Shown here: piece after piece, positions 6,575 to 25,923 of the stretch | Layout: the number at the start of each line of letters is the position of its first letter | Numbering within the stretch: position 1 is the first letter of the stretch | Virus record (IMG/VR): IMGVR_UViG_3300006755_000004 | Coordinates: 1 to 50,989 of that record | Strand: one strand, 5' to 3' | Source: a virus | Lineage: Duplodnaviria; Caudoviricetes | DNA: 50,989 nt | Position numbers and translations under genes: made by a program | Notes under the pieces: generated by a model | The model's database searches: none | What the model was told of the DNA's origin: nothing | What the model saw: the letters and a program-made list of their open reading frames with translations, nothing else

Positions 6575-6618
6575 GAGAATGCAGTCCTTACCCCGGTCCA
6601 CTCAGACCGGAATCAGTA

Positions 6619-9872: not shown

Positions 9873-10448
9873 TCAGCCGAGGTCGTCCTCGTCGAAGTCG
9901 TCCTCGACCGGCGCGGGCTTGGCCTTGGCGGCGGGGGCCGGACGGCGGCGACGGCGGGAGACCGGCTTCGCGGCGGGCTCCTCGGCCTCCTCCTCGGCCT
10001 CCTCGACGACCGGCTTGGCCTTCGCGGTGGCGGCACCCCGGCGACGGCGGCTCACGGGCTTGGCCGGGGGCTCCTCCGCCTCGTCCTCGTCGTCCTCGAC
10101 GGGCTCGGCCGCCTTCTTCGCGGCGGCCTTCTTGGCGGTGGCGGTCGCGGCCTTCTTCGCCTTGGCCTCGGCCTCCTCGCGCTTCTTGACCTCGCGGGCC
10201 TCGCGCTTCTCCTCGCGCTTGGCCTCGGCCTCCTCGGCCGCCGCGCGCTTCTCCGCCAGGACCTCCTGGTTCTCCGGCGACTTCTGGAACTCGATCCGGA
10301 GGGCGCAGGCCATCTGGACGGACTTGACGTCGACGTCCTCGTAGCCGGTCTTGTCGGCGATCCACTCGGCGAAGCGCTCGTGCAGGTCGCTGGGGTCCTT
10401 GTCGACGAGCTTCGTGAAGCGCTCGGTGTTCTCTTCGGCCTCGGCCAT
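9873..10448 (-). CDS. Lys/Ala/Glu-rich protein, paralog family member 1
   Basis: LHERFAEWIADKTG...DVKSVQMACALRIEFQKSPENQ shared with 16596-17069 and 20275-20868. Confidence 0.8.
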   Translation of the reverse strand: MAEAEENTERFTKLVDKDPSDLHERFAEWIADKTGYEDVDVKSVQMACALRIEFQKSPENQEVLAEKRAAAEEAEAKREEKREAREVKKREEAEAKAKKAATATAKKAAAKKAAEPVEDDEDEAEEPPAKPVSRRRRGAATAKAKPVVEEAEEEAEEPAAKPVSRRRRRPAPAAKAKPAPVEDDFDEDDLG

Positions 10449-10485
10449 GGTTATCTGCTCCATATCGAACGGGTGGGCACGACCA

Positions 10486-14488: not shown

Positions 14489-15459
14489 CAGCCGATCGCC
14501 TTCTTGCTGCCGCCCATTCGGTCCTGGCCGATGTCGGCCGTCCGGCCGTCGCGCTGGCCACGGTCGTACGCCTCGCCCACGATGCGCTGGCGATAGCCCT
14601 TGCCGTCCTTGTGACCCATGAGCCGCTTGAGCTCGTCCATCGCGTCCTTCACGAGCTTGTTGCGGTCGAACAGCACGAGCTCCGCACCGGACGTCGACTT
14701 GACCTGGTCGTCGCGGTACTTGCGCAGCATGGCGAACCGGTCGCGCACCTCGTTGAGGAAGCCCTGCGCGTAGGAGCGCTGGAAGGTCACCGGGGACGAC
14801 ACCGCGCGGTACGGCTCACCGATGTCCTTGCACCAGCGCTTGGCCGCCCGGATCAAGCGACCGCCGTCCTTCTTGCCCTTGCCCGCGTCGTCGACCTCCC
14901 ACGGGACGATCTCCCAGCTGGTGTCGATGACGGTGCCGAGCTCCGTGGCCTCGTGCCAGGCCTGGTTCATCAGGAAGGCGATGCGCTGCCACTTGATCCC
15001 GGCCTCGTGCAGGATGTACACGTTCTCGTCGAACGAGAGCTGCTTGTTGGGCTTGGGGTCGAGCTTGGCCAGCGCCTGGAGGCGCAGCGAGGTGTACACC
15101 ATCTCGACCAGGTTCATGTTGCTGGGGAACCCGACCAGGTAGCCGGAGCCGGAGGTCCAGCCGAAGAACTCGCAGTCGTAGTGCTTGGCGACCGCGATGA
15201 TCAGGTTGTACCACTGGTTGCCGAGCTTGTCGTTTGCCGGCATGAACGAGATGATCCGCTGCTCGGGCTCCTCGACGATGCCCCCGGCGAGCTGCCGAGC
15301 CGCGCTCAGCATGGCCTCGTCGATGGCGTACTTCTGCATCAGCTGCTCGGCCTTGCTGAGGTATGTCTGTGCGCCCTCAGGGTTGGTGTCGACCAGCGAC
15401 TGATACGTGTCGAGCAGGCCCTGGATCTTGGCCAGCATCGGGTTCTGCGTTACGGACAT
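14488..15459 (-). CDS. DUF2786-like domain protein
   Basis: MLAKIQGLL...EGAQTYLSKAEQLMQKYAID N-terminus, SYAQGF and AYDRGQRDG C-terminal patterns; start follows HH1 and GAGGAG. Confidence 0.75.
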   Translation of the reverse strand: MSVTQNPMLAKIQGLLDTYQSLVDTNPEGAQTYLSKAEQLMQKYAIDEAMLSAARQLAGGIVEEPEQRIISFMPANDKLGNQWYNLIIAVAKHYDCEFFGWTSGSGYLVGFPSNMNLVEMVYTSLRLQALAKLDPKPNKQLSFDENVYILHEAGIKWQRIAFLMNQAWHEATELGTVIDTSWEIVPWEVDDAGKGKKDGGRLIRAAKRWCKDIGEPYRAVSSPVTFQRSYAQGFLNEVRDRFAMLRKYRDDQVKSTSGAELVLFDRNKLVKDAMDELKRLMGHKDGKGYRQRIVGEAYDRGQRDGRTADIGQDRMGGSKKAIG

Positions 15460-15474
15460 GTGCAAGTCTCCTCG

Positions 15475-15539
15475 GGACTCGTCAGCACCGGTACCATACC
15501 GGCGGACCAGCAGCGCTTCCCAGCGGGCTGGTTTCGTCC
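15475..15539 (-). ncRNA. type II hammerhead ribozyme HH1
   Basis: Minus strand: GGAC-GAAA-CCAGC...GCTGG-TC^CGCCGG-TATGGTA-CCGGTG-CTGACGA-GTCC; predicted cut 15505/15504. Confidence 0.93.
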
Positions 15540-15542
15540 TGG

Positions 15543-15692
15543 CTAGAGGAAGATGGACCAGATGAGGAAGGCTCCGAAGCTGCCTCCCAGGATGAAGACC
15601 GCGAGCACGACGAACATGCAGCCGAGCGCACAGCCCTTGCCGTCCTTGTCCATGTCGTGCTTGGTCCACCAGTTCTCGATGTAGCTCGCCAT
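15543..15692 (-). CDS. small single-TM membrane protein
   Basis: MASYIENWW...GCALGCMFVVLAVFILGGSFGAFLIWSIFL; TGATG coupling. Confidence 0.6.
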   Translation of the reverse strand: MASYIENWWTKHDMDKDGKGCALGCMFVVLAVFILGGSFGAFLIWSIFL

Positions 15693-15781
15693 CAGCCCAG
15701 CGCCTCCCAGAGGGGCTTGACAGCCGGGTTGCTCACCGGCATCGCCGGAGGCTCTTCCGTGACCCACACGTCTTCGTCCAT
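15692..15781 (-). CDS. 29-aa peptide
   Basis: MDEDVWVTEEPPAMPVSNPAVKPLWEALG; GGAGG RBS immediately after HH2. Confidence 0.55.
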   Translation of the reverse strand: MDEDVWVTEEPPAMPVSNPAVKPLWEALG

Positions 15782-15797
15782 GTGCAAGATCCTCCAC

Positions 15798-15872
15798 GAT
15801 CTCGTCAGCACCCGTACCTTACGGGCGGACGCTCCGTCCACGGCTGGCAACCGCGTGCGGAGCGTTTCGATC
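15798..15872 (-). ncRNA. type II hammerhead ribozyme HH2
   Basis: GATC-GAAA-CGCTCC...GGAGCG-TC^CGCCCG-TAAGGTA-CGGGTG-CTGACGA-GATC; stem II covaries (GATC/GATC); cut 15828/15827. Confidence 0.93.
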
Positions 15873-15884
15873 TGGCTGGGAGGC

Positions 15885-15980
15885 TCAGCCCCGCTGCGAG
15901 GCGATGTACGCCACGAGCAGGGCCAAGGTTAATAACCAGAACCATCTTCCTGAGCGGTCCGGCCGCTGCCTGTGGTTCAT
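15885..15980 (-). CDS. 31-aa membrane peptide
   Basis: MNHRQRPDRSGRWFWLLTLALLVAYIASQRG. Confidence 0.45.
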   Translation of the reverse strand: MNHRQRPDRSGRWFWLLTLALLVAYIASQRG

Positions 15981-15982
15981 GG

Positions 15983-16453
15983 TCAGTCCGTGGTCTCGAC
16001 GAAGCCCGCGTCGTCCCCGAAGTCGCTGGGGGCGTTCTCGTCCGGGATGCCGAACTCGCGACGCCGGTTGACCTCGTCCGGCGAGACGAGCTTCATCTGG
16101 CGACCCCTGAAGTCGATCCCGATGTCGTGGCGTGCCTTGAGCTCGTGCACCAGCCACGCCGGGTTGATCCAGAGCGGGACGTACATGGAGCCGTTGTTCA
16201 GCAGCTCGATGTACGCGGCCTTGATCAGGTCGTCGCACCCCATCTCGCGGAGCGTCTTGGGCAGCTCCAGCATCTCGGGCGTGGGGTCGGTGTTGCAAGG
16301 CCGGAGGTTGTAGTCGACCTCGTTGTTGTCCGCGTCGCGCAGCCGGAGCCGGTTGATCGCGTCGTTGGCCTTGTCCTCGTCGGTGAACACCGCCAGGTGC
16401 TCCTCGCGGTCCTCCTCGACCAGCACCTTGTAGATGTTCCACACAACGTCCAT
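15983..16453 (-). CDS. hypothetical protein (156 aa)
   Basis: MDVVWNIYKV...; GAGGAGG RBS right after HH3. Confidence 0.75.
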   Translation of the reverse strand: MDVVWNIYKVLVEEDREEHLAVFTDEDKANDAINRLRLRDADNNEVDYNLRPCNTDPTPEMLELPKTLREMGCDDLIKAAYIELLNNGSMYVPLWINPAWLVHELKARHDIGIDFRGRQMKLVSPDEVNRRREFGIPDENAPSDFGDDAGFVETTD

Positions 16454-16466
16454 GCATCCTCCTCGG

Positions 16467-16530
16467 GGACTCCTCAGCAGCGCCATCCAGCGCCGGACCA
16501 TCGGCTCCTTGCGGAGCTTAGGTTTCGTCC
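16467..16530 (-). ncRNA. type II hammerhead ribozyme HH3
   Basis: GGAC-GAAA-CC(TAA)GCTCC-GCAA-GGAGC(CGAT)GG-TC^CGGCGC-TGGATG-GCGCTG-CTGAGGA-GTCC; cut 16496/16495. Confidence 0.9.
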
Positions 16531-16595
16531 TTGCCACCCTGGCACCCTGGCCGAGGGACTCGAAGTCTCCTCGACCAGGGGCGCTCGGTGGGGTG

Positions 16596-17069
16596 TTACT
16601 TGGTGGTGGTCCGACGCGTCCGGCGGGTGCGCGGCTTGGGCGCGTCCTCCGTGGGCTCGGCAGCAGCCTCCGTGGCCGCCTCCGCGCCGTTCTCCGTGTC
16701 GGCCTCAGCGGCGGGCTCAGCGTCGTCCTTCGGGGCCTCAGCGGGCTCCTTGGGCTTCGCCTCGTCCGTCGCGGCCTCCTCGCCCTTGAGCTTGGCGAGC
16801 TCGGCCTCCAGCTTGGCGAGCTTCCGGGCCTTGGCCTCTTCCGCCTTCTTGGCGGCCTCGGCCTTGCGCTCCTTCAGCGCCTGCTGGTTCTCGTCGGACG
16901 CCTGGAAGTCCATCCGCAGCGTCACGGCGAGCTGGACCGTCTTCAGGTCCGGGGTGAAGCCCGTCTTCTCCTCGATCCACTTGGCGAACTGCTTGTGGAG
17001 CTCGGTGGGCTCGCTGGCCGCCCGCTCGACGAAGGTCTTCTTGGTCTCGGCGGTGGTGTTCTCGGCCAT
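16596..17069 (-). CDS. Lys/Ala/Glu-rich protein, paralog family member 2
   Basis: LHKQFAKWIEEKTG...DLKTVQLAVTLRMDFQASDENQ; AAGGAGG RBS after HH4. Confidence 0.8.
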   Translation of the reverse strand: MAENTTAETKKTFVERAASEPTELHKQFAKWIEEKTGFTPDLKTVQLAVTLRMDFQASDENQQALKERKAEAAKKAEEAKARKLAKLEAELAKLKGEEAATDEAKPKEPAEAPKDDAEPAAEADTENGAEAATEAAAEPTEDAPKPRTRRTRRTTTK

Positions 17070-17085
17070 GGTGTTTCCTCCTTGG

Positions 17086-17149
17086 GGACTCCTCAGCACC
17101 GGCTCTTACCGGCGTACGGCCAGCGCCTCCCGGCGGGACCGTTTCGTCC
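17086..17149 (-). ncRNA. type II hammerhead ribozyme HH4
   Basis: GGAC-GAAA-CGGTC...GGCCG-TA^CGCCGG-TAAGAG-CCGGTG-CTGAGGA-GTCC; GUA site, cut 17115/17114. Confidence 0.92.
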
Positions 17150-17570
17150 TGTGTATTGCATGCCGGCATCTCATCCGCTTGTGGATGGTTGCGGTTGCCG
17201 GCAGACCGTCCACCTTTCGACTTCCTGGCCAGAGGTGCCCCGAGCGGGGTGTCTCACTTGACCCAGGCTTGAAGAGGTGGAGTCCGTCGCTCGCTAGCAG
17301 CTTTCAGTACCAACCGGATGTGTGCGCTTCCGGCCTCCGCAGTGGAGGTCGGCTGCCCGTCCTCGGCCAGTCCAGTCGCTTCGCTCGCAACTACCGGTTT
17401 TGGGGAGTCCGGTTCCTGTCTAGAGTCAGCGGCCAGGACCGGGGTCCTGTGCGCGATCTCAGCCGTCTCTCTTGGCTGTCCTGCTCGGGTTCGCGGTCTT
17501 CGGGCGGAACCTCGACCCTCGGCCAGACCGGCCATCCGGGGAGTTCGTTCCTTGCCCTCGTCGCTTCCTG
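17150..17570 (-). ncRNA. candidate large structured ncRNA A (paralog of 21279-21597)
   Basis: About 420 nt between a promoter and HH4 with no convincing CDS; 5' ~90 nt and 3' end homologous to copy B. Confidence 0.6.
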
Positions 17571-17576
17571 AGTAGA

Positions 17577-17605
17577 ACTATGCGCCATATCTGGGTCCGA
17601 GGCAA
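17577..17605 (-). promoter_or_regulatory. sigma70-type promoter driving ncRNA A (TTGCCT-17-CATAGT)
   Basis: Exact 17-nt spacing; same -35 as the promoter at 21604-21632; upstream CCTACCTG/CAGGTAGG inverted repeat and A-tract. Confidence 0.7.
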
Positions 17606-17773
17606 CAACGCCCCTACCTGGTCAAACGCCGTGTTTGCGCAGGTAGGGGCATGTGCGAACTTCCTCGAAGTTTTTTTGACTTTCTTCGTTTCCGCAGGCC
17701 GGCATGAGTGCGACGCGTCATGGGGCGAATCGGGCGAACCCTATCGTCAACGGCGATTCACCCGGCCTCCGGC

Positions 17774-18175
17774 CTACCAGCAGCCGCCGTGGATTGGCGT
17801 GAACTTCATCGCGTCGCCTTCGGCGAGGAGCGCGGCCTTGTGGTACGTCGCCCAGCTGGTGGTGTACCAGACGTCGTCGTCCTTGGACGAGCCGTTGACG
17901 TTGTCCAGCTCCACACAGTACAGCGCAGGCTTGGCATGCTGGTCGATGACCTTCTTCCAGGCCACGACCGTGCGGTACGACTTGCACTTGCCGTTAACCT
18001 TGCGCGTGCACTCCTTGCTGGTGGTCTTGACCTTGTGGCTGCGCTCGGCCACGGCCTTGGTGGACTTGATGTCGTCGCGCAGGCCGTGCACGCTTGTGAT
18101 GGCCGGTGCCTTGGCGCTGCACGCGCTGATGCCGGCAATCGCGACGAAGATGACGGGCGCGGTCCTGATCCGCAT
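17774..18175 (-). CDS. putative lipoprotein
   Basis: Signal peptide with lipobox-like GISAC; AAGGA RBS. Confidence 0.7.
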   Translation of the reverse strand: MRIRTAPVIFVAIAGISACSAKAPAITSVHGLRDDIKSTKAVAERSHKVKTTSKECTRKVNGKCKSYRTVVAWKKVIDQHAKPALYCVELDNVNGSSKDDDVWYTTSWATYHKAALLAEGDAMKFTPIHGGCW

Positions 18176-18205
18176 GGGGTTCCTTCGCTCGTGTAAGGGG
18201 ATGGA

Positions 18206-18240
18206 GCGCCCCGGTCGGGCCGGTTGCCTGACCGGGGCTC
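18206..18240 (-). terminator. hairpin, probable terminator
   Basis: GCCCCGGTCGGGC...GCCTGACCGGGGC inverted repeat. Confidence 0.55.
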
Positions 18241-18270
18241 GTTCGCTCGTTACGTGGCCGCGTAGGGCGG

Positions 18271-18615
18271 CTAGAGGGGCACGAGGTCGTACAGCTTCCC
18301 GTCCGAGTCGCGCACGACGCGGGTGCCGTCCTCCTTCTCGCCCACCAGCTCGAAGTGCAGGTCCTTGCCGGCATCCGGGTTGGCTCGCTGCGGGAAGCCG
18401 GAGTTGTCGAGCGACTCCAGACGCCAGCTGTTGCCGGCAGACAGCACGGTGATGTTCATGCCGCCGTCCGTCATCAGGAAGCGCACGGCGTTGCGGACCG
18501 AGGACTCCTGGGCTCCCTTGGGCAGCCGGTTCATGATGTCCTGGAGCGTGACGACCTTGCCCACGTTGTTGGACAGAACCTCGACGACGGTCGGACGGGT
18601 CTGGATGCGAGTCAT
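18271..18615 (-). CDS. winged-helix-like DNA-binding protein
   Basis: VVEVLSNNVGKVVTLQDIMNRLP...SVRNAVRFL...WRL pattern; AAGGAGG RBS. Confidence 0.6.
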   Translation of the reverse strand: MTRIQTRPTVVEVLSNNVGKVVTLQDIMNRLPKGAQESSVRNAVRFLMTDGGMNITVLSAGNSWRLESLDNSGFPQRANPDAGKDLHFELVGEKEDGTRVVRDSDGKLYDLVPL

Positions 18616-18635
18616 TGTGCAGTCCTCCTTGGGGA

Positions 18636-19049
18636 CTAGTTGTTGCTGTCGTTGCGCTGTGCCGGGACGGTGCCCTCGGCGTCCTTGGCCTGGTACATGC
18701 GGGCCGGTCCGAACTCGACCTTGCCCTCGTGCTCCAGGACGCGCCACACGGCCGCGCGCTCCATCTCGTTGAGCCTGCCGCCCTTGGCGATCTCGAACTG
18801 GTGCTCGGCCATGGCGAACAGGAACAGCGCGCGGAGCTGCATCAGCGAGCTGTAGGCCAGGCCCTGGCGGACGTGCGGGCGGGTCTGCTCGCGCTTCTGC
18901 TTGGATCCGAGCCGGTACATCGCCAGCTGGTACTCGGTGGCGAACTGCAGGTGCTCCTCGAACGTGTTCGGGTCGAGCGGCATGCCCGTTGCCTCGGCCA
19001 CGGTCTCGGCGTCGAACGCCACCTGGATCCTGTGCTTGCGGTCGTACAT
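18636..19049 (-). CDS. hypothetical protein (137 aa)
   Basis: MYDRKHRIQ...; AAGGAGG RBS after HH5. Confidence 0.75.
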   Translation of the reverse strand: MYDRKHRIQVAFDAETVAEATGMPLDPNTFEEHLQFATEYQLAMYRLGSKQKREQTRPHVRQGLAYSSLMQLRALFLFAMAEHQFEIAKGGRLNEMERAAVWRVLEHEGKVEFGPARMYQAKDAEGTVPAQRNDSNN

Positions 19050-19064
19050 GTTGGTCCTCCTTCG

Positions 19065-19117
19065 GGACTCTTCAGGAGTGCCGTCCAGCACCCGACCTCC
19101 TTTCGGAGGTTTCGTCC
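19065..19117 (-). ncRNA. type II hammerhead ribozyme HH5 (minimal)
   Basis: GGAC-GAAA-CCTCC-GAAA-GGAGG-TC^GGGTGC-TGGACG-GCACTC-CTGAAGA-GTCC; cut 19094/19093. Confidence 0.95.
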
Positions 19118-19121
19118 TTGG

Positions 19122-19310
19122 TCACATGTCGTTGAGAACCTGCCGGATGCAGTCCTCGCTCATGAAGGGGTAGTCGCGGCGGATGAGCTCCGCGATCTGA
19201 GCCTTCTGGTTCAGCGACGGCGACGCCGCCTGGAGGGGCGCAGCGCTGCGATCAGCTCGCCCAGGAAGTCGGCGAGCAAGTCGATGAAGAACATCGCGCA
19301 CCTGCCTCAC
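19122..19310 (-). CDS. hypothetical protein; frame ambiguous (an overlapping 27-aa ORF MFFIDLL...RRRRRR is also possible)
   Basis: GTGA coupling to the upstream ORF; the alternative ATG has an RBS-like sequence. Confidence 0.35.
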   Translation of the reverse strand: MRQVRDVLHRLARRLPGRADRSAAPLQAASPSLNQKAQIAELIRRDYPFMSEDCIRQVLNDM

Positions 19311-19465
19311 TGTCCAGCCGGAGGACCGAACAGGTCCTGCGCGTCGGCGTCCGGCGGCTGCACCTGCTCCGTGGGCGTGTGGCCTCGCGTCTCCGCCTGG
19401 ATGACCGGGTCAGCCTCCGGAGGGGCGGCGGGCTCGTGGCCGTTGTGCGGGGTGGGGACGCTCAC
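19307..19465 (-). CDS. Pro-rich hypothetical peptide
   Basis: GTG start overlapping the upstream stop; AAGGAG RBS. Confidence 0.5.
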   Translation of the reverse strand: MSVPTPHNGHEPAAPPEADPVIQAETRGHTPTEQVQPPDADAQDLFGPPAGQ

Positions 19466-19686
19466 TTGCTGATCTCCTTCTTGGTCACCGGGATGAGGAG
19501 CCCATGCTCGCTCATCGACACCATCTTGCAGAATCCGACGAGCTCCCGCACGATGCGGGGCGGGGCGCTGTGGATGACGACATAGTCCTTGTTGACCACC
19601 CCGTCGAAGATCGCGAACGTCGACATCTTGATGAGGCCGTCGGCGTTCATGATGTAGTCGTACACGGCCTTGCGGTCGTTGTCCAT
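19462..19686 (-). CDS. hypothetical protein (74 aa)
   Basis: AAGGAGG RBS. Confidence 0.7.
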   Translation of the reverse strand: MDNDRKAVYDYIMNADGLIKMSTFAIFDGVVNKDYVVIHSAPPRIVRELVGFCKMVSMSEHGLLIPVTKKEISK

Positions 19687-19704
19687 CTCGTCCTCCTTGG
19701 GGAC

Positions 19705-19863
19705 TTAGGCCAGCTCCATGCCGGCATCGTATCCGCACTGGGCATGGGCCCACACGGTCTGTGCATTCTCGCGATCGATGAACAGCCCCATCTCGTTGTC
19801 CGCGTCCTCGTCGCAGAGCTGGCAGCTGTCATCGTCCATGAGCTCGCGCTCGTCCTCGTCCAT
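19705..19863 (-). CDS. small acidic Cys/His protein
   Basis: MDEDERELMDDDSCQLC...HAQC; TGATG coupling. Confidence 0.55.
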   Translation of the reverse strand: MDEDERELMDDDSCQLCDEDADNEMGLFIDRENAQTVWAHAQCGYDAGMELA

Positions 19864-20177
19864 CAGATCGCGTCCACCTTGTCGAGGTAACGCCGGAGCG
19901 CGGCGCGCACCGACTGCGGCTTGACGCCGTAGCGGCGTGCTAGGCGGCCTACCGAGTGGCAGTCGCCGCCTTCCTTCAGGAACGCTCCGTAGAGCTGTGC
20001 ACCGCCCAGCGGGAGCCTCTTGTAGGGCCGAGGCTTGCGGCCGGTTGCCCGCACGATGACCTTGCGGATCGTGCTCTCGTTGACGCCCAACGCACGGGCG
20101 GTCGCCGAGTTGTTCTGGTCGTGCCTACGCCACGTCTTAACGACCTCGTCGTCGCTCGGCAGCGGGATCAGACCCAT
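19863..20177 (-). CDS. HTH DNA-binding protein (two HTH-like units)
   Basis: NNSATARALGVNESTIRK and VGRLARRYGVKPQSVRAAL; AGGAGG RBS after HH6. Confidence 0.7.
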   Translation of the reverse strand: MGLIPLPSDDEVVKTWRRHDQNNSATARALGVNESTIRKVIVRATGRKPRPYKRLPLGGAQLYGAFLKEGGDCHSVGRLARRYGVKPQSVRAALRRYLDKVDAI

Positions 20178-20192
20178 GACCATCCTCCTGGG

Positions 20193-20263
20193 GGACTCGT
20201 CAGTACGGCCACTCAGCCGCAGACCGCCCCGGTCCTGTGGTAGCGACCGGGGCGGTTTCGTCC
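20193..20263 (-). ncRNA. type II hammerhead ribozyme HH6
   Basis: GGAC-GAAA-CCGCCCCGGTC-(10)-GACCGGGGCGG-TC^TGCGGC-TGAGTG-GCCGTA-CTGACGA-GTCC; cut 20222/20221. Confidence 0.94.
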
Positions 20264-20274
20264 TGGGGTGTTGC

Positions 20275-20868
20275 TCAGTTGTCCAGCGCGCCGCAGCAGG
20301 GCTTGGCGTCGTAGGCCATGTAGTTGTCCTCCAGGCTGGACTCGCCGGAGTCGATCATGTCCGAGTAGATCAGGTGGGTCAGCTCGGTGTGGCTGCTGAC
20401 CAGCGCGGTCTCCTTGGAGAAGCCCTGCTTCGCGGTCTTCTTCTTGGCGTCGGCGCACCCGAACTTGTGGACCTCGGGCTCGTTGCCGCCGTAGATCACC
20501 GTCAGCTTGACCGGCTCGCTGGGCTCCTCGGCCTTGACCTCGACCGGAGCCTCCTCGGCCTTCGGCTCCTCGGCCTTGACCTCGCCCTTGATCTCGGCCA
20601 GCATCTTCTCCAGCTTGGCCTTCTTGCGCTCGGCCGACGCCTTCTTCAGCTCGGCCGCCTTGGCCTTGCGCTCGGCCAGGCTCTTCTGGTTCTCCGGGCT
20701 GGCCTGGAAGTCCATCCGGAAGGAGACCGCGAGCTGGACCGTCTTGACGTCGACCTTGACCCCGGTCTGGATGTACAGCCAGTGTGCGAAGTCCTCGTGC
20801 AGCTGGGTGGGAGCCTTCTTGGCGAGCTCTTCGAAGTTCTTCGGGGTCTTGGGGGAGTTGGCAGCCAT
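20275..20868 (-). CDS. Lys/Ala/Glu-rich protein, paralog family member 3, with extra C-terminal domain
   Basis: LHEDFAHWLYIQTG...DVKTVQLAVSFRMDFQASPENQ. Confidence 0.8.
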   Translation of the reverse strand: MAANSPKTPKNFEELAKKAPTQLHEDFAHWLYIQTGVKVDVKTVQLAVSFRMDFQASPENQKSLAERKAKAAELKKASAERKKAKLEKMLAEIKGEVKAEEPKAEEAPVEVKAEEPSEPVKLTVIYGGNEPEVHKFGCADAKKKTAKQGFSKETALVSSHTELTHLIYSDMIDSGESSLEDNYMAYDAKPCCGALDN

Positions 20869-20911
20869 GGTGTCCTCCTTGGGGACTCGTTCGGTTGGCC
20901 TTACAGTAAGA

Positions 20912-20940
20912 ACTATACTCCATATGGAGCCAGTTGGCTA
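20912..20940 (-). promoter_or_regulatory. repeated early promoter (TAGCCA-17-TATAGT)
   Basis: Consensus ...ATGGAG-TATAGT with 17-nt spacer. Confidence 0.7.
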
Positions 20941-20961
20941 CTCTGGAGTGCAACTTGTTTG

Positions 20962-20999
20962 CCGGCAAGCCGGGGAGCTGGTGGGCTCCCCGGCTGCCA
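20962..20999 (-). terminator. hairpin, probable terminator
   Basis: AGCCGGGGAGC...GCTCCCCGGCT inverted repeat. Confidence 0.55.
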
Positions 21000-21011
21000 G
21001 TCGCGCTAGTT

Positions 21012-21197
21012 TCAGCGCTGGATCTCGTCGGGACCGGGCGTCCCGAGCGGGTTGTCGACCTGGATCAGGTCCCGGCCGTCCGAGTCGGTCGGCAGGGGCC
21101 GGTTGGTGATCTGGTCGCCGCTCTTGACCTCGGCCTTGGGGCCGGGGCTGCCGGGCGGGTTGCTCGCCTGCGGGACGCGCTTGGGCAGGATGCCCAT
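21012..21197 (-). CDS. Pro-rich hypothetical protein (61 aa)
   Basis: MGILPKRVPQ...; AAGGAG RBS after HH7. Confidence 0.65.
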   Translation of the reverse strand: MGILPKRVPQASNPPGSPGPKAEVKSGDQITNRPLPTDSDGRDLIQVDNPLGTPGPDEIQR

Positions 21198-21213
21198 GGT
21201 GTTCTCCTTCGTG

Positions 21214-21278
21214 AGACTCCTCAGGACCGCCATCCAGCGGCCGACCCTCGGGGCGTTGCCGCCCGTCGGGTTTCGTCT
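21214..21278 (-). ncRNA. type II hammerhead ribozyme HH7
   Basis: AGAC-GAAA-CCC..GGGCG-GCAA-CGCCC..GGG-TC^GGCCGC-TGGATG-GCGGTC-CTGAGGA-GTCT; compensatory A-U pair in stem II; cut 21243/21242. Confidence 0.92.
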
Positions 21279-21597
21279 TTGGTATTCGCATGCCGGCATC
21301 TCCGGCACTGCGTTCGCTCCGCCCTCGCGCCTTGCCAACCTCTCGGATGTTCTCTCGTGGGGTGGCTGGTTCCGTGTCTCCCTAGCCAGTCCCGCGTCCG
21401 TCCCCGAGGAGTTGCGCGCTACTACCTTCGCTGCCGTTTTCTTGTGGAGGGTCGGTGCCCTGTCTCCGACGCTGCATTTGCTGCTACCGACCTGTCGCCT
21501 GGCCGCCTTGCTCGGTGTTCGCGTTCTTCGGGTGGAGCCTCGACCGTCGGCTGGAGTCGCCGTCCCGGGAGCTTCGCTCGCCGCCCTCTCGCTTACA
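21279..21597 (-). ncRNA. candidate large structured ncRNA B (paralog of 17150-17570)
   Basis: About 320 nt between a promoter and HH7; homologous blocks shared with copy A. Confidence 0.6.
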
Positions 21598-21603
21598 GGA
21601 CTA

Positions 21604-21632
21604 ATCATGCTCCAGATCCACGAGAAAGGCAA
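21604..21632 (-). promoter_or_regulatory. sigma70-type promoter driving ncRNA B (TTGCCT-17-CATGAT)
   Basis: Duplicate of the 17577-17605 architecture. Confidence 0.7.
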
Positions 21633-21892
21633 CAACCCGTCTACCTGGTCAAACATGATGAATGCCCTGGTAGGAGGCTTGCCGGCATTCTGAAAGTTTT
21701 TTGAAGAACTTTCGTTTGACCAGGCCGGCATGAGTGCGTGGAACGAATCGGGTCGAATCGGGCTCAGCCCCGGTGCGCGGTCCTACGTGGCCCGTAGGCG
21801 GCTCCGCGCGGGCTCGCCGGGGCAACGGGGCTCCCGCGCGCTGCGCGCTCGCGTACGGGGCGCGTAGGGGTGCGCACGGCCCCACAACGCGA

Positions 21893-21927
21893 GAGAGCCC
21901 CGCTCCCTGGTTCGGGGCGGGGCTCTC
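21893..21927 (-). terminator. hairpin terminator
   Basis: GAGAGCCCCGC...GCGGGGCTCTC just after the 21944 stop. Confidence 0.65.
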
Positions 21928-21943
21928 GGTGGGGCGGGGTTGG

Positions 21944-22309
21944 TCAGTCGCGGTCGGCGCAGCGGTTGAGCTCGCGGAGCGCCTTCTGCATCGCCTTGCG
22001 CTCGTAGGCCTCACGAGCATTCTGGATGCCGGAGGTCGAGCCGCCGACGTTGCCCTCGATGAGCTGCTCGGTGGCGTCCACCATCCAGTCCTCGATGCCT
22101 CGCTTGCCGGCACGGTTCCAGCGGGTCTGCAGCTTGGCGGTCAGGTCGGCGTTGGCCTGCGCCTCCAGCAGGTTCTCCATCGTGCCCGGCAGGACCATCT
22201 CGCCAGCGGCGAACGCGTCGGTGAAGCGGGCCTGGACGGTCAGCAGCTGCTTCGCGGCGGAGAGGGCCAGGAGCTCGACGGTCTTCGCGGTCTTCTCGGA
22301 GTTCAGCAT
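21944..22309 (-). CDS. hypothetical protein, cassette gene
   Basis: Own promoter, GAAGCCCCAAGGAGG RBS and terminator. Confidence 0.75.
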   Translation of the reverse strand: MLNSEKTAKTVELLALSAAKQLLTVQARFTDAFAAGEMVLPGTMENLLEAQANADLTAKLQTRWNRAGKRGIEDWMVDATEQLIEGNVGGSTSGIQNAREAYERKAMQKALRELNRCADRD

Positions 22310-22354
22310 TGGGTGCCTCCTTGGGGCTTCGTTCCGGTTGGCCTTACGAGAACT

Positions 22355-22383
22355 ACTATACTCCAGTCTGGAGGTTCGCGCTA
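22355..22383 (-). promoter_or_regulatory. repeated early promoter (TAGCGC-17-TATAGT)
   Basis: Consensus match. Confidence 0.7.
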
Positions 22384-22414
22384 CTCCAGATCGAAGATTC
22401 TTTCTACTGCCTCA

Positions 22415-22443
22415 GGCCCGCACCCCGGTGTGGGATGCGGGCC
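22415..22443 (-). terminator. hairpin terminator
   Basis: GGCCCGCA...TGCGGGCC. Confidence 0.55.
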
Positions 22444-22461
22444 GGTTGCCGGCAGTTGCGC

Positions 22462-22821
22462 TCAGCCCTCCAGCGCGGGGCTCGGGGGCGTGTAGCCCGT
22501 CCGCTCGATCGCCACGATCAGCATCGCCCGCAGCGCGGGGACGTCGGGCGAGTCCGAGTTGACCACGTCGTCGTACAGCTCACGCGCGGTCGCCTCCAGG
22601 TCGGTCACCAGCTCCATGCACTCCGGGACCATCGAGTCGTACAACGCGCAGCTGCAGTAGCTGTTCGAGCCGCACCCGCAGCCCGTCGCCTTGAGCGAGA
22701 ACAGCTCGCCCGTCTCGTCCTTGATCACCAGCATCGCGACGCCCGCAAGGTCGTACCGCTCCTGCGTGATGTCCACGTCGCCGAGGACCGTGTAACCGGG
22801 GATCGTGTAGTCGCTGCTCAT
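22462..22821 (-). CDS. hypothetical Cys-cluster protein, cassette gene
   Basis: MSSDYTIPG...ATGCGCGSNSYCSC; GAAGCCCCAAGGAGG RBS. Confidence 0.7.
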   Translation of the reverse strand: MSSDYTIPGYTVLGDVDITQERYDLAGVAMLVIKDETGELFSLKATGCGCGSNSYCSCALYDSMVPECMELVTDLEATARELYDDVVNSDSPDVPALRAMLIVAIERTGYTPPSPALEG

Positions 22822-22859
22822 GGCCGCCTCCTTGGGGCTTCGTTCGGGATGTTGATAGA

Positions 22860-22888
22860 ACCTTACTCCATCTGCACAACGGGCGCTA
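22860..22888 (-). promoter_or_regulatory. repeated early promoter (TAGCGC-17-TAAGGT)
   Basis: Spacer contains the conserved TGTGCAGATGGAG. Confidence 0.65.
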
Positions 22889-22917
22889 CCCCTTTGTGCA
22901 GATTTCTTGCCGGCAAG

Positions 22918-22954
22918 GGCGGAGCCCCGGCTCCCTGGGGAACCGGGGCTCGCC
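22918..22954 (-). terminator. hairpin terminator
   Basis: GAGCCCCGG...CCGGGGCTC. Confidence 0.6.
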
Positions 22955-22964
22955 TTCGGGTTGG

Positions 22965-23288
22965 TCAGACGGTGCCCGGCTCGACCGGGATGATCGCCTT
23001 GGTCCCTCGGAACTCGCCAGCGTCGACGTACGCGCCGAGCTCCGTCTGCATGAGCGTTGCCAGCCACGTGGCGTCCATGTGGTCGGGAACCTCCCAGAAC
23101 CCGTCCAGTGCGACCTGCTCGTCGATCGCGTTCAGCAGCTCGTCGCGCTTGGCGACCAGCATGTCGAGCGTGTTCTCCTTGAGCAGGGTCGGCACGACCG
23201 GGTTGAGCCGGTTGAGGTCGTACGACAGCACAGACACCTGGATGGCGACCTGGTGCTTCTCGTGCTCGATGGAGTGGATCTCGCTCAT
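22965..23288 (-). CDS. hypothetical protein, cassette gene
   Basis: CCCCCAGGAGG RBS; own promoter and terminator. Confidence 0.72.
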   Translation of the reverse strand: MSEIHSIEHEKHQVAIQVSVLSYDLNRLNPVVPTLLKENTLDMLVAKRDELLNAIDEQVALDGFWEVPDHMDATWLATLMQTELGAYVDAGEFRGTKAIIPVEPGTV

Positions 23289-23342
23289 CGGGGCCTCCTG
23301 GGGGCCTCGGGGCCGACCCTCGCGGTCGGCCTTACACTAAGA

Positions 23343-23371
23343 ACTATACCCCATCTGCACATGCGTGGAAA
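23343..23371 (-). promoter_or_regulatory. repeated early promoter (TTTCCA-17-TATAGT)
   Basis: Spacer ATGTGCAGATGGGG. Confidence 0.7.
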
Positions 23372-23449
23372 CCCCTCGGGGCAACTTTGTGCAGAATCAG
23401 TAGGTGGCCGTTTGCCGGCATGCCGGCACGAGGCCGGACGCGGGTAGCC

Positions 23450-23483
23450 GAGAGGCCCTCTTCGGCTGTGGAGAGGGCCTCTC
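23450..23483 (-). terminator. hairpin terminator
   Basis: GAGAGGCCCTCT...AGAGGGCCTCTC. Confidence 0.65.
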
Positions 23484-23498
23484 TGGGCTCGGGCGGGG

Positions 23499-24209
23499 TC
23501 AGCAGGAGACGCAGACCCGGAACTCCTTCCGCGTGCACTGGCCGTAGTAGGTCGGGCCGGTCCGCTCGATCGGCTCGGTGCGGATCTTGGTGTTGGCGTA
23601 GGTGACCGGCTGCCGGCAGTCGGCGCAGATGGTCTTGGTGTAGGTCCACTCGAAGCGGTAGTCCTCCGGGACCGAGCCCGGCTTGTGCAGCTCGGTGGCG
23701 TCCGTGCCCTGTCGGGTCGCGTCGATGCCGGGGACCTGGACGACGTAGGTGAAGCGCTCGGTGCCGAACCTACGGTGCTCGCCGTGGTCGACGACCCGGA
23801 CGACCTCGACCTCTCCGGCGGGGCAGCGGTAGCCGTGGGGGCGCTCGCCCGGCAGGAAGAACAGCTTGTCGCCGACCTGGTGCTCGGCACCCTCGACGAT
23901 CTCCGGCTTGGACTCCTCGACCGGCGCGGTGGCGGCGGCCTCGGCCTCCAGGGCGGCCAGCGCGGCCTTCTCGCAGGTCTTGCAGACCTTGCGGCCACCG
24001 GTGATGCGGGCGGCGTCCAGCGCGTCCTGGATGCGCTCGTAGCTGGCTCCCTGGGCCAGACGGCCACGGGTCAGGACGCCACAGGCGTTCTCGGCGTAGT
24101 AGGCGACGACCCCGGTCTCGTTGATGTTCGCGTCGCTCTGGTTGCTCGTGGTCTTGCAGGCGATTCCGGCGATGTGGTTGGTGGCTCGGTTGTAGCGGAT
24201 GCTGAACAT
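23499..24209 (-). CDS. hypothetical multi-domain Zn-binding protein, cassette gene
   Basis: MFSIRYNRATNHI...CKTCEK...CADC...CVSC; GAGGAGG RBS. Confidence 0.72.
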   Translation of the reverse strand: MFSIRYNRATNHIAGIACKTTSNQSDANINETGVVAYYAENACGVLTRGRLAQGASYERIQDALDAARITGGRKVCKTCEKAALAALEAEAAATAPVEESKPEIVEGAEHQVGDKLFFLPGERPHGYRCPAGEVEVVRVVDHGEHRRFGTERFTYVVQVPGIDATRQGTDATELHKPGSVPEDYRFEWTYTKTICADCRQPVTYANTKIRTEPIERTGPTYYGQCTRKEFRVCVSC

Positions 24210-24251
24210 TGGGTGCCTCCTCGGGGCTCCGTTCCCTGCCTTACGAGAGTA

Positions 24252-24280
24252 ACTATACTCCATCTGCACATGCCGCGCTA
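24252..24280 (-). promoter_or_regulatory. repeated early promoter (TAGCGC-17-TATAGT)
   Basis: Spacer GGCATGTGCAGATGGAG. Confidence 0.72.
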
Positions 24281-24399
24281 CCCGTTTCCACAGAATTGTT
24301 GAAACGGATTTGCCGGCCTCCTGCAGGCTCCAGAGGGGCGTGTGGGCTTTAACCTACAGGCCGCATCTCCACAAGCCGGCAGACAGCCGCCTACACATG

Positions 24400-24440
24400 C
24401 AGGAGCCCCGCCTCCTCCGGTTGGAGGGGCGGGGCTCCTG
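24400..24440 (-). terminator. hairpin terminator
   Basis: CAGGAGCCCCGCC...GGCGGGGCTCCTG. Confidence 0.65.
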
Positions 24441-24446
24441 GCCCTG

Positions 24447-24719
24447 TCAGACCTCGCCGTCGAACTCGACCAGGTGCGCGTAGTCCAGGTCCATCTGGTC
24501 GGGGTCCTGGCTCTCGACCTCGATCATCCGGTAGCCGACCGGGTTGACGTCGTCCATCGCGGCCCAGTAGGCGTAGGCGACCGGGTCGCCCTCCAGCACC
24601 TCGACGACCTCGTGCCACGGGCCACGGATCCGGCCGGTCGCCTCGACCGTGCCGTGGACCTCCATCGTCGCGCGGATCCGGTTGAGCAGGTCCTCGTTGG
24701 TGTTCTCGGCGTCGAACAT
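24447..24719 (-). CDS. hypothetical protein, cassette gene
   Basis: MFDAENTNEDLL...; CCCCAAGGAGG RBS. Confidence 0.72.
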   Translation of the reverse strand: MFDAENTNEDLLNRIRATMEVHGTVEATGRIRGPWHEVVEVLEGDPVAYAYWAAMDDVNPVGYRMIEVESQDPDQMDLDYAHLVEFDGEV

Positions 24720-24755
24720 CTCGGCCTCCTTGGGGCTCTCTTGCTTACGAGAGTA

Positions 24756-24784
24756 ACTATACTCCATTCGGGGTGGAGGCGCTA
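24756..24784 (-). promoter_or_regulatory. repeated early promoter (TAGCGC-17-TATAGT) embedded in a long inverted repeat
   Basis: TTCGGGGTGGAGG-cgctac-CCTCCACCCCGAA; the hairpin could also terminate the upstream gene. Confidence 0.7.
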
Positions 24785-24808
24785 CCCTCCACCCCGAACT
24801 AGTTGCTG

Positions 24809-25057
24809 CTACTTGGAGTCGGGCTGGAAGGTCTCGCCGACCCAGTAGCCGGTGCCCACCGCGCCCCAGCTGACCGACTGGTAGCCCTCGGCCTTCATCT
24901 TGTCGGAGAGCTTGACCAGAGCGTCCTGGCCGTTGCGGACCTTGAAGGACTCCAGGGTCTTGCGGTCCTCGCCGTAGCCGGTCTTGATCAGGACCTGCGC
25001 CCAGCCGTTGCCCAGGCTGCGGAACTCGATGCGCTTCTGGATCAGGGTCTCGGCCAT
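24809..25057 (-). CDS. hypothetical protein, cassette gene
   Basis: GAAGCCCCAAGGAGG RBS. Confidence 0.72.
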   Translation of the reverse strand: MAETLIQKRIEFRSLGNGWAQVLIKTGYGEDRKTLESFKVRNGQDALVKLSDKMKAEGYQSVSWGAVGTGYWVGETFQPDSK

Positions 25058-25105
25058 GGTTGCCTCCTTGGGGCTTCGGGCGGCTCGTCCGCCCTCATGA
25101 GTAGA

Positions 25106-25134
25106 ACTTTACTCCATCTGCACATGGCTGGCTA
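25106..25134 (-). promoter_or_regulatory. repeated early promoter (TAGCCA-17-TAAAGT)
   Basis: Spacer GCCATGTGCAGATGGAG. Confidence 0.68.
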
Positions 25135-25202
25135 CTCGTTTGTGCACTTTTCTTGAAGATTCTTTTGGAGATCTGCCGGCTTGGATTTTGGGCATCAAAC
25201 CA

Positions 25203-25231
25203 AGTCTACTCCATCTCCACACGAATGGAAA
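25203..25231 (-). promoter_or_regulatory. repeated early promoter (TTTCCA-17-TAGACT), tandem upstream copy
   Basis: Spacer ends GTGGAGATGGAG. Confidence 0.62.
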
Positions 25232-25263
25232 CCCCCTTGGCACATCTCTTTGAAATGCCGGCA

Positions 25264-25288
25264 CGCCCCGGTCGCGAGGACCGGGGCG
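25264..25288 (-). terminator. hairpin terminator
   Basis: CGCCCCGGTC...GACCGGGGCG. Confidence 0.55.
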
Positions 25289-25301
25289 CACGGGGCGGCG
25301 A

Positions 25302-25520
25302 CTAGCAGCCGGGGCAGCCGGGGTGGGTGAAGCAGGCGGTCCGGCGGCAGGGCATCGAGTGCGGGTGCGCCATCTCGCCGCAGTCGATGCAGACGTGGGA
25401 CAGGCAGAACTTGCCGGCAGGCAGCAGGACGCAGTCGGCGCAGCCGTAGGTAGCGAGCGCCGTAGCGGCCAGCAGGCGGACATAGAGGGCGGAGAGCGGG
25501 ACGAGGACGGGAGCGGACAC
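25302..25520 (-). CDS. small Cys/His-rich protein, cassette gene
   Basis: GTG start after CCCCAAGGAGG; CADC, CIDC, CPGC. Confidence 0.6.
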   Translation of the reverse strand: MSAPVLVPLSALYVRLLAATALATYGCADCVLLPAGKFCLSHVCIDCGEMAHPHSMPCRRTACFTHPGCPGC

Positions 25521-25551
25521 TTGGACCTCCTTGGGGTCGTTGACTAAGAGA

Positions 25552-25580
25552 ACTCTACTCCAGATGCCGGCAGAAAGCAA
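25552..25580 (-). promoter_or_regulatory. repeated early promoter (TTGCTT-17-TAGAGT)
   Basis: Spacer ends ATCTGGAG and contains TGCCGGCA. Confidence 0.68.
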
Positions 25581-25594
25581 GTCTGGATATGGGG

Positions 25595-25623
25595 TTGCTT
25601 TCCATGTGCACATGGGGTATAGT
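25595..25623 (+). promoter_or_regulatory. repeated early promoter, rightward (TTGCTT-17-TATAGT)
   Basis: Back-to-back with 25552-25580; ATG begins 7 nt after the -10 box. Confidence 0.7.
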
Positions 25624-25629
25624 TCTCTC

Positions 25630-25782
25630 ATGGACAACGAGCAGAACGCGAACCCGGACCAGCCGACCGACGCTGAGATCCTCTGGAAGATCCAGCAGGC
25701 GACCGAGAGGCGACAGGCCCAGCTGGACGAGCTGGAGATCCTCTCTCGCCACCTGCACGACCCGGACAACAACCCGCTGTAG
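25630..25782 (+). CDS. 50-aa hypothetical protein, probably leaderless
   Basis: MDNEQNANPDQ...; followed by a hairpin at 25792-25829. Confidence 0.6.
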   Translation: MDNEQNANPDQPTDAEILWKIQQATERRQAQLDELEILSRHLHDPDNNPL

Positions 25783-25791
25783 CGAATGCGA

Positions 25792-25829
25792 CAGAGGCCC
25801 GGCTCCCTGGTGTGGAGTCGGGCCTCTGC
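25792..25829. terminator. hairpin between convergent genes
   Basis: CAGAGGCCCGGCTCC...GGAGTCGGGCCTCTG. Confidence 0.6.
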
Positions 25830-25923
25830 ACATGCCGGCCTCATGGCTGGGCTTTAACGGATGCTGGACATGTGCATCTCTCGCCTACGGAGCGCCTACA
25901 GCCTCTGCAGTTGGCTATGGTCG

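What the first reader, a model, noticed from the sequence alone, without database searches (positions are those of the whole stretch)
15459..21217. Each ribozyme is fused to a Shine-Dalgarno and start codon: natural RiboJ-like mRNA insulators
Seen: in all seven copies the 3' strand of stem II is followed within about 1-5 nt by a strong SD (GAGGAG, GGAGG or AAGGAGG) and then an ATG. The starts are at 15459, 15781, 16453, 17069, 19049, 20177 and 21197. Cleavage would give each gene a standard leader of about 45-50 nt: 5'-OH, a 6-bp hairpin, CUGANGA, then the SD. Established: RNase E and RNase J prefer 5'-monophosphate ends, and synthetic biology uses hammerhead-hairpin-RBS parts (RiboJ) as insulators. 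Inference: the phage breaks polycistronic RNA into separately stabilised, host-nuclease-independent mRNAs, or cleavage gates access to the SD.
Basis: partly seen in the sequence, partly recalled or inferred. Interest (0 to 1): 0.88.

Follow-up and report, generated by a model that had tools for sequence, protein, structure and literature searches.

The report
Hammerhead ribozymes overlapping phage start hairpins
A Streptomyces phage carries seven self-cutting RNA motifs, each directly before a gene's ribosome-binding site, that likely chop long messages into one-gene pieces; each piece is predicted to refold into the same small start hairpin that heads the phage's promoter-led genes, which makes two unexplained phage features testable in cultured relatives.

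Summary
Observation confirmed (minus strand). There are seven type II hammerheads with perfect cores and covarying stems, each 2-4 nt before a Shine-Dalgarno (SD) and start. Cleavage would leave 42-46-nt leaders. Six cultured Streptomyces phages carry 6-8 copies each.

The kind is known. Perreault 2011 described clustered phage hammerheads making single-gene mRNAs. SD-proximal type II hammerheads were common in a sample of viral contigs (72 of 97). This scan noted the same array in a related genome and similar ones elsewhere.

The 'RiboJ insulator' reading is only partly supported. A standard leader fits, but 5'-OH protection from RNase J is not established (glmS is a counter-example), and folding gives no sign that cleavage opens the SD.

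New detail: the 3' strand of stem II is also the 5' arm of a covarying SD hairpin, a start-associated sequence (SAS) that heads the ribozyme-free genes of the same arm. The two folds exclude each other. Two ribozymes also end long conserved noncoding leaders, one holding the minus strand's only 12-nt antisense to a SAS.

Cleavage and translation were not shown. Verdict: new variant of a known kind, testable in cultured phages.

The parts
21214..21278 (-). Type II hammerhead 1 (stem II AGAC/GUCU), predicted cut after 21243; SD AAGGAG, ATG 21197; ends noncoding leader B
20193..20263 (-). Type II hammerhead 2, cut after 20222; ATG 20177; starts 11 nt after the upstream stop
19065..19117 (-). Type II hammerhead 3, cut after 19094; ATG 19049; 4 nt after the upstream stop
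17086..17149 (-). Type II hammerhead 4 (GUA triplet), cut after 17115; ATG 17069; ends noncoding leader A; the same position carries a U4C core in five named relatives
16467..16530 (-). Type II hammerhead 5 (internal loop in stem III), cut after 16496; ATG 16453
15798..15872 (-). Type II hammerhead 6 (stem II GAUC/GAUC), cut after 15828; ATG 15781; strong predicted alternative SD hairpin (about 7 bp)
15475..15539 (-). Type II hammerhead 7, cut after 15505; ATG 15459; 3 nt after the upstream stop; 6-bp alternative SD hairpin
21012..21197 (-). 61-aa ORF, no family; start conserved in relatives
19863..20177 (-). 104-aa helix-turn-helix protein
   Evidence: HTH_28 E 5e-8; phrog_7061
18636..19049 (-). 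137-aa ORF, no family; conserved in relatives
16596..17069 (-). 157-aa ORF, phrog_20596; paralogue of the promoter-led gene 20275-20868
15983..16453 (-). 156-aa ORF, phrog_36293
15692..15781 (-). 29-aa ORF; similar 33-aa ORFs in Dryad and L016
14488..15459 (-). 323-aa DUF2786/DUF7168 protein, phrog_421
20872..20886 (-). SAS-type SD hairpin GUCC-CCAAGGA-GGAC after a promoter, no ribozyme (ATG 20868)
19690..19704 (-). SAS-type SD hairpin, no ribozyme, no promoter found (ATG 19686)
18622..18636 (-). SAS-type SD hairpin, no ribozyme, no promoter found (ATG 18615)
21603..21614 (-). Promoter-like motif heading leader B
20911..20922 (-). Promoter-like motif (TATAGT -10 box) heading gene 20868; the same motif heads the single-gene cassettes at 22365-25213
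17576..17587 (-). Promoter-like motif heading leader A
21279..21598 (-). Noncoding leader B, 90-97% identical in 8 named phages over 82-100% of the query; unannotated
17150..17572 (-). Noncoding leader A, paralogue of B
21400..21411 (-). 12-nt exact antisense to the SAS of gene 16453, inside leader B; the only 12-nt hit on the minus strand

Best explanation
Seven type II hammerhead motifs likely cut the long non-structural-arm transcripts during transcription, so that each downstream gene would start on its own 5' end, and the freed leader is predicted to refold into the same SD hairpin that heads the phage's promoter-led genes. Steps. (1) Shown in sequence: GUCC follows the core and can pair either back with GGAC (stem II) or forward across the SD. 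(2) Inferred: stem II is complete about 7-11 nt before the SD hairpin's 3' arm is made, so the ribozyme folds first, helped by a U(loop I)-A contact, and cuts. (3) Inferred: only 4 bp hold the products, so they part. The upstream mRNA keeps the GC-rich stem III as a 3' hairpin with a cyclic phosphate. The downstream mRNA begins with a 5'-OH stem I hairpin. (4) Predicted: GUCC then pairs over the SD, which would disfavour re-association and give the standard start element. The ribozyme thus stands in for a promoter as a maker of standard 5' ends and uncouples neighbouring genes' decay and translation. It is not an on-switch for the SD.
For: Perfect cores in 63 of 63 distinct canonical copies. 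All four stem II pairs are Watson-Crick in 63 of 63, in six stem types. Stem I is 100% paired with 35 two-sided changes in 19 distinct rows of 20 chosen 18-nt-stem copies, 0 of 500 shuffles. U at position 7 after the cut and A just 5' of stem II occur in 63 of 63; PMC9217987 names the U7-A contact (passages). Leader length is 40-47 nt while stem III varies 11-34 nt and the upstream gap in the window varies 3-110 nt. SD hairpin at ribozyme-free genes: third pair Watson-Crick in 65 of 76 sites in all four types; by gene family 23 of 34 against 10.7 in shuffles, 0 of 10000. In the 22 ribozyme-led sites in the same register the three inner pairs hold in 22 of 22. The hairpin is confined to the arm: 7 of 10 called starts at 14-25.4 kb against 0 of 26 elsewhere. 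Native spacers stabilise it more than swapped (3 of 300) or shuffled (0 of 300) spacers. Predicted SD opening after cleavage equals that of promoter-led genes (6.09 against 6.05). One paralogue pair has one promoter-led and one ribozyme-led copy. Clustered phage hammerheads cleaved in vitro and in E. coli (PMC3088659 passages).
Against: No cleavage was measured. With 40 nt upstream and 30 nt of coding sequence, ViennaRNA gives stem II a median probability of 0.01, and the active fold lies a median 4.4 kcal/mol above the ensemble; tertiary contacts and kinetics must make this up. Contigs from RNA libraries holding related phages run across predicted cut sites, which means DNA or uncut RNA. The swap effect is small (-5.5 against -5.0 kcal/mol). 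Five ribozyme-led AGAC-type and Yara copies have little or no SD hairpin (weaker than -3.1 kcal/mol), and Yara has few SAS words (5). The hairpin also heads two internal genes with neither promoter nor ribozyme (19686, 18615), so it does not mark only 5' ends. A DNA palindrome is not excluded.
Confidence: 0.6

Rival explanations
1. Conditional switch: the SD hairpin competes with stem II before cleavage, so cutting happens only when a ribosome, protein or antisense RNA shifts the balance. Processing is then regulated, gene by gene.
For: The folds are mutually exclusive. The alternative hairpin region reaches -7 to -9.6 kcal/mol at some genes and covaries with stem II at 15781 (GAUC in all three strands). 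The stem II 3' strand lies at -20 to -14 from the start in the window, at the edge of a 30S footprint (recalled). An N7-matched anti-core tail occurs in 14 of 97 other viral type II hammerheads against 1.45 in shuffles. A U4C core, reported to lower activity in vitro (PMC3088659), is kept at one position in five named relatives.
Against: No ligand or factor was identified. No CsrA family match in the 74%-complete record. The ribozyme is complete before its competitor. The window itself has a canonical core at the U4C position.
Confidence: 0.17
2. One reading: the main purpose is stabilising each mRNA through a 5'-OH end and hairpin that resist RNase E and J.
For: The 3' product starts with a 6-8-bp hairpin at its first base. 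Streptomyces has RNase ES with conserved 5'-sensor residues and an RNase J preferring monophosphate over triphosphate (PMC10126417 passages).
Against: RNase J1 degrades 5'-OH RNA after glmS cleavage (PMC3997798). No half-life data exist here. Stabilisation does not explain the shared SAS hairpin.
Confidence: 0.13
3. The ribozyme-SAS units are mainly mobile or recombinogenic cassette borders, tolerated because they keep an SD; cleavage is neutral.
For: The same ribozyme variant heads unrelated genes in different phages (for example the TGCGGC/GGAC and CGCCCG/GATC types). Arrays are widespread in viral contigs (about 5600 stretches estimated for a pattern of which 100 of 154 sampled matches were valid).
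Against: Cores, stems and the tertiary U/A are kept by compensatory change across diverged copies, which points to selection on catalysis, not on sequence identity.
Confidence: 0.07
4. Tandem ribozymes make circular one-gene mRNAs by re-forming a hammerhead from the two product ends.
For: Most copies share GGAC/GUCC, so the ends of neighbouring products could pair.
Against: No back-joint at a cut site among the joints shown (contigs only, tables cut). The GAUC copy is incompatible with its neighbours. The SD hairpin would sequester GUCC. Perreault found no circles.
Confidence: 0.03

Closest known systems
Clustered type II hammerhead ribozymes of prophages and phages (Perreault et al. 2011, PMC3088659; Rfam RF02276)
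   Same: Open stem II topology, consensus core, several copies flanking single genes, proposed processing into operon- or single-gene mRNAs; one halovirus example 13 nt before a start codon.
   Different: 4-bp stem II, no loop I/tail pseudoknot (0 of 63 reach 4 bp), invariant U7/A signature, SD within 1-4 nt, and a stem II strand shared with an SD hairpin; below the Rfam gathering score.
Start-associated sequences (SAS) of cluster K mycobacteriophages (PMC3203893) and cluster EF Microbacterium phages (PMC7302621)
   Same: Conserved element at the RBS with complementary outer arms around a 7-nt AGGA-bearing centre, limited to the non-structural arm, with a single copy in the opposite orientation away from a gene start.
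   Different: Different sequence (C-rich arm first). The arms covary in all four pair types, which argues for pairing. Seven sites are fused to ribozymes. No 17-bp ESAS repeats were sought.
RiboJ insulator (as described in PMC8942793)
   Same: Hammerhead cleavage removes upstream sequence and gives a uniform transcript start before an RBS.
   Different: Natural and intergenic, with no separate downstream hairpin. The SD hairpin overlaps the ribozyme. RiboJ's type III topology is recalled, not checked.
glmS ribozyme (PMC3997798)
   Same: Self-cleavage in a 5' leader leaving a 5'-OH before an ORF.
   Different: glmS is ligand-gated and triggers RNase J1 decay; here there is no known ligand and the product starts with a hairpin.

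Membership tests
Hammerhead ribozyme (type II) | Core CUGANGA, GAAA and NUH around a three-way junction | tested here: met
   7 of 7 in the window; 63 of 63 distinct copies
Hammerhead ribozyme (type II) | Stems I and III closed by loops, stem II open, with covariation | tested here: met
Hammerhead ribozyme (type II) | Stem I-stem II tertiary contact | tested here: inconclusive
   U7 and the A beside stem II are invariant in 63 of 63; the contact itself is inferred (PMC9217987)
Hammerhead ribozyme (type II) | Self-cleavage | not testable with these tools
   only contigs were available
Rfam RF02276 Hammerhead_II | Score at or above gathering (37 bits) | tested here: not met
   0 hits; best 33.2 bits, 4 of 7 listed
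Rfam RF02276 Hammerhead_II | Loop I / 3'-tail pseudoknot of 4 or more pairs | tested here: not met
   0 of 63; mean 2.1 pairs, same as swapped tails
Start-associated sequences (SAS) | Conserved RBS-position repeat with symmetric outer arms, in the non-structural arm | tested here: met
   against PMC3203893 passages
Start-associated sequences (SAS) | The cluster K 13-bp consensus itself | tested here: not met
   consensus here is NNCC-CCAAGGA-GGNN; works like SAS, not the same sequence
Start-associated sequences (SAS) | Single opposite-orientation copy not at a gene start | tested here: met
   21400-21411; present in 4 of 6 named relatives
RiboJ-type insulator | Separate hairpin between ribozyme and RBS | tested here: not met
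   SD begins 1-4 nt after stem II
RiboJ-type insulator | Expression independent of upstream context | not testable with these tools
   needs reporters

The most novel reading that the evidence does not exclude
An all-RNA control circuit for a phage's early genes. One SD hairpin heads about 20 genes. At seven of them it is the off-fold of a hammerhead, so ribosome or regulator binding sets whether the message is cut. The first ribozyme also releases a conserved RNA of about 350 nt whose antisense-to-SAS stretch pairs with these starts in trans to shut the set down or block cleavage.
Probability: 0.13. Interest if true: 0.82.

Novelty: new variant of a known kind. Interest (0 to 1): 0.52.

Why it matters
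The job of bacterial and phage self-cleaving ribozymes is still open (PMC6765202 passages), as is the job of actinophage start-associated sequences (PMC3203893). Here both sit on the same nucleotides in nine cultured Streptomyces phages with named hosts (six were scanned), so single-base changes can separate cleavage, hairpin and SD. It also offers native Streptomyces parts for uniform 5' ends. It offers a possible RNA target too for the early block of phage infection by aminoglycosides, which bind hammerheads (PMC9239200; the link is my speculation, and that paper's phages were not examined).

Tried and rejected
Rfam at gathering threshold: no hit in the window. No family for leaders A or B or their homologues at E up to 10 or 1. 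No tRNA or tmRNA.

Leaders A and B are no more stable than shuffles (z 0.23 and 0.44). A consensus fold of 10 close copies gave 31 pairs, 6 with two-sided change, but 14 diverse copies gave only 3 pairs, so no structure is claimed.

Loop I pseudoknot: rejected. CsrA family in the own record: 0 of 1 (record 74% complete). No RNA ligase or kinase family among 29 selected window ORFs scanned against Pfam (not all ORFs).

RNA runs: 13 listed, all kept as contigs with small shares. Two layings (4 runs each; 5 different runs) showed related phages, contigs bridging cut sites and no pile-up of ends. They cannot show cleavage. The 17103-to-15498 back-joint matches homology between two ribozyme copies, not a circle.

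'Cleavage opens the SD': the unconstrained comparison looked favourable (footprint cheaper after cleavage in 48 of 63), but stem II is hardly formed in that ensemble. With the active fold enforced the sign reverses.

Antisense-SAS as a general regulator: only 6 of 16 window starts pair with leader B better than 97% of shuffles. The site is predicted paired within the leader, altered in Lizz and absent in Yara.

Literature searches (open-licence library only) found no paper on hammerheads in Streptomyces phages or on a hammerhead-SAS overlap. Subscription papers and all supplements were not seen; Perreault's Dataset S1 could list such copies.
Full report
Setting. The window is a whole 50,989-base virus record, 74% complete. 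Bases 15000-21500 match nine cultured Streptomyces phages: Gibson, Rooney, Wentworth, Lizz, PHTowN, ShakeNBake, phiRKBJ001, Dryad and Yara, at 73-83% identity (the label 'cluster BN' is recalled, from no call). The region is a run of small minus-strand genes between replication genes and the primase. I call them early genes by position and by their own promoters; this is an inference.

Observation. All seven starts are on the minus strand, each behind a complete type II hammerhead. Predicted cuts follow positions 21243, 20222, 19094, 17115, 16496, 15828 and 15505. The descriptor gives 7 in the window against at most 1 in 100 shuffles, and each unit cut at the end of stem II folds as the three-way junction. 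Rfam gives nothing at threshold and four sub-threshold Hammerhead_II hits. The family's pseudoknot is absent here (0 of 63 reach 4 bp), which may explain the low scores.

Relatives. I fetched the right-hand 21-39 kb of six of the nine named phages and 13 IMG/VR loci. The scan gave 78 rows and 63 distinct copies. The six named phages hold 37 canonical copies, all with GGAG within 10 nt of stem II, plus five U4C copies: 6-8 per phage. Over the 63, all four stem II pairs are Watson-Crick in six stem types, A precedes stem II in 63, U is seventh after the cut in 63, the SD gap is 1-4 nt and the leader 40-47 nt, while stem III ranges 11-34 nt. Stem I covaries strongly in 20 chosen copies. These copies are related, so the counts are not independent events. 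The downstream ORFs are conserved and mostly annotated in relatives; four of seven have a Pfam or PHROG family.

How general. A generic type II pattern, without SD, hit about 5600 stored viral stretches by estimate; 134 loci from 2 of 64 parts were returned. Of 154 distinct matches, 100 had intact stems, 50 did not and 4 intermediate ones were dropped. A strict SD-plus-start test passed 45 of 100 against 3 of 50. After de-duplication a looser test passed 72 of 97 against 12 of 49. The same A and U signature held (66 of 69; 69 of 73). So a hammerhead just before an RBS is a common phage layout, and this phage sits at the tight end. Perreault 2011 already described clustered hammerheads flanking single prophage genes, proposed processing into single-gene mRNAs, showed cleavage and found no circles (passages). 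A 2019 review says the purpose is still undefined (passages). This scan has logged many such arrays and this same array in a related genome.

The letters after the core, GUCC-CCAAGGA-GG, also stand before ribozyme-free genes of the arm, most of them directly behind a repeated promoter motif. There the arms around the 7-nt centre covary. Anchoring only on the centre and SD, the third pair is Watson-Crick in 65 of 76 sites (GC 33, TA 23, AT 5, CG 4). By gene family it is 23 of 34 against 10.7 expected, 0 of 10000 shuffles. The hairpin is found at 7 of 10 automatically called starts in the arm and 0 of 26 elsewhere. It has the layout of the start-associated sequences of cluster K and EF actinophages: symmetric arms, AGGA centre, non-structural arm only (passages). 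In ribozyme-led genes its 5' arm is the 3' strand of stem II. The three inner pairs hold in 22 of 22 sites in that register, and other copies use shifted registers (6 pairs at 15459; 7 at 15781). Native spacers favour the hairpin over swapped ones, modestly (-5.5 against -5.0 kcal/mol, 3 of 300). Some AGAC-type and Yara copies lack it.

Mechanism. Shown: the sequence allows two exclusive folds. Inferred: the ribozyme is complete first, cuts, the 4-bp stem II lets the products part, and GUCC folds over the SD. Predicted SD opening is 4.6 kcal/mol in the enforced active fold, 6.1 after cleavage and 6.05 at 53 promoter-led leaders. Cleavage therefore brings the RBS to the phage's standard state and does not expose it. 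Promoter-led leaders are of like size, and one paralogue pair uses a promoter for one copy and a ribozyme for the other. The ribozyme thus looks like a stand-in for a promoter. Against: in full context the energy model hardly forms stem II (median 0.01; 4.4 kcal/mol above the ensemble), two internal genes have the hairpin with neither promoter nor ribozyme, and contigs from RNA libraries bridge the cut sites, which cannot tell DNA from uncut RNA.

The insulator claim. A uniform start is shared with RiboJ (passages), but there is no separate hairpin. The stability argument is weaker than stated: RNase J1 attacks the 5'-OH product of glmS (passages), and the Streptomyces data I read compare only mono- and triphosphate ends (passages). 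Protection, if any, would come from the stem I hairpin at the first base.

Released RNAs. Two ribozymes end long promoter-started noncoding leaders that are better conserved than the coding region (leader B) and match no Rfam family. Earlier notes of this scan on other genomes suggested looking for an antisense to the start hairpin. Leader B holds one: 12 nt, the only such hit on the minus strand, with 14 of 3000 shuffles giving one. It is kept in Gibson, Wentworth, phiRKBJ001 and Dryad, altered in Lizz and absent in Yara. It is exact for one gene, one mismatch from the commonest SAS, and predicted paired within the leader. It is a lead, not a result.

Papers seen. Passages only, by term search: PMC3088659, PMC6765202, PMC9239200, PMC3997798, PMC12192606, PMC3203893, PMC7302621, PMC9217987, PMC10126417, PMC8942793. 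No supplements were read. Ten searches found no report of these ribozymes or of a hammerhead-SAS overlap in the open library.

Verdict. The feature is real and under selection, of a known kind, with one variant trait worth testing: the ribozyme and the start hairpin share a strand, in phages that can be grown. Interest 0.52; new variant of a known kind.

Noticed in passing
window 17150-17572 and 21279-21598 (minus): Two paralogous noncoding leaders run from a promoter to a hammerhead. Leader B is 90-97% identical in relatives against 73-83% for the region overall. A core motif recurs in more distant phage contigs (L154, L158, L159, L162, L164, L165), some followed by pseudoknot-type hammerheads above Rfam threshold. 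No Rfam family; could be released ncRNAs or antitermination elements.
   Followed up: partly
L001:25311, L002:9417, L004:6966, L005:6940, L006:7513: The ribozyme ending leader A has a U4C core in five named relatives with intact stems. U4C cores with intact stems I and II were found in 11 of 100 loci from a dedicated pattern scan.
   Followed up: partly
L036, L037, L039, L041, L054, L057, L064, L073, L081, L087, L124, L126, L128, L132: 14 of 97 viral type II hammerheads carry a tail complementary to their own CUGAN core, matching the variable N7 base (shuffles 1.45, maximum 6): a self-inactivating hairpin after the ribozyme.
   Followed up: partly
window 20911-25213 (minus): Run of single-gene cassettes, each with a near-identical promoter motif (TATAGT-type -10 box) and SAS; the same in relatives.
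   Followed up: partly
window 15235-26453: The palindrome TGCCGGCA is concentrated in this arm (21 of 31 copies at 15-30 kb), often near promoters and before ribozymes; possible operator or modification site.
   Followed up: no
window 9873-10463, 16596-17069, 20275-20868: Three apparently paralogous Lys/Glu/Ala-rich proteins (repeat family D18; phrog_20596 for two of them).
   Followed up: no
window 5837-6601 and 25924-26517 (minus): TerD-domain protein and a Prok-JAB domain protein.
   Followed up: no
L006:5918-6049: Dryad gene 81 is annotated as starting inside the ribozyme; the SD-led start lies 30 nt further on.
   Followed up: no
runs X2-X5: Root metatranscriptome libraries of one study hold at least two strains of related phages.
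   Followed up: partly
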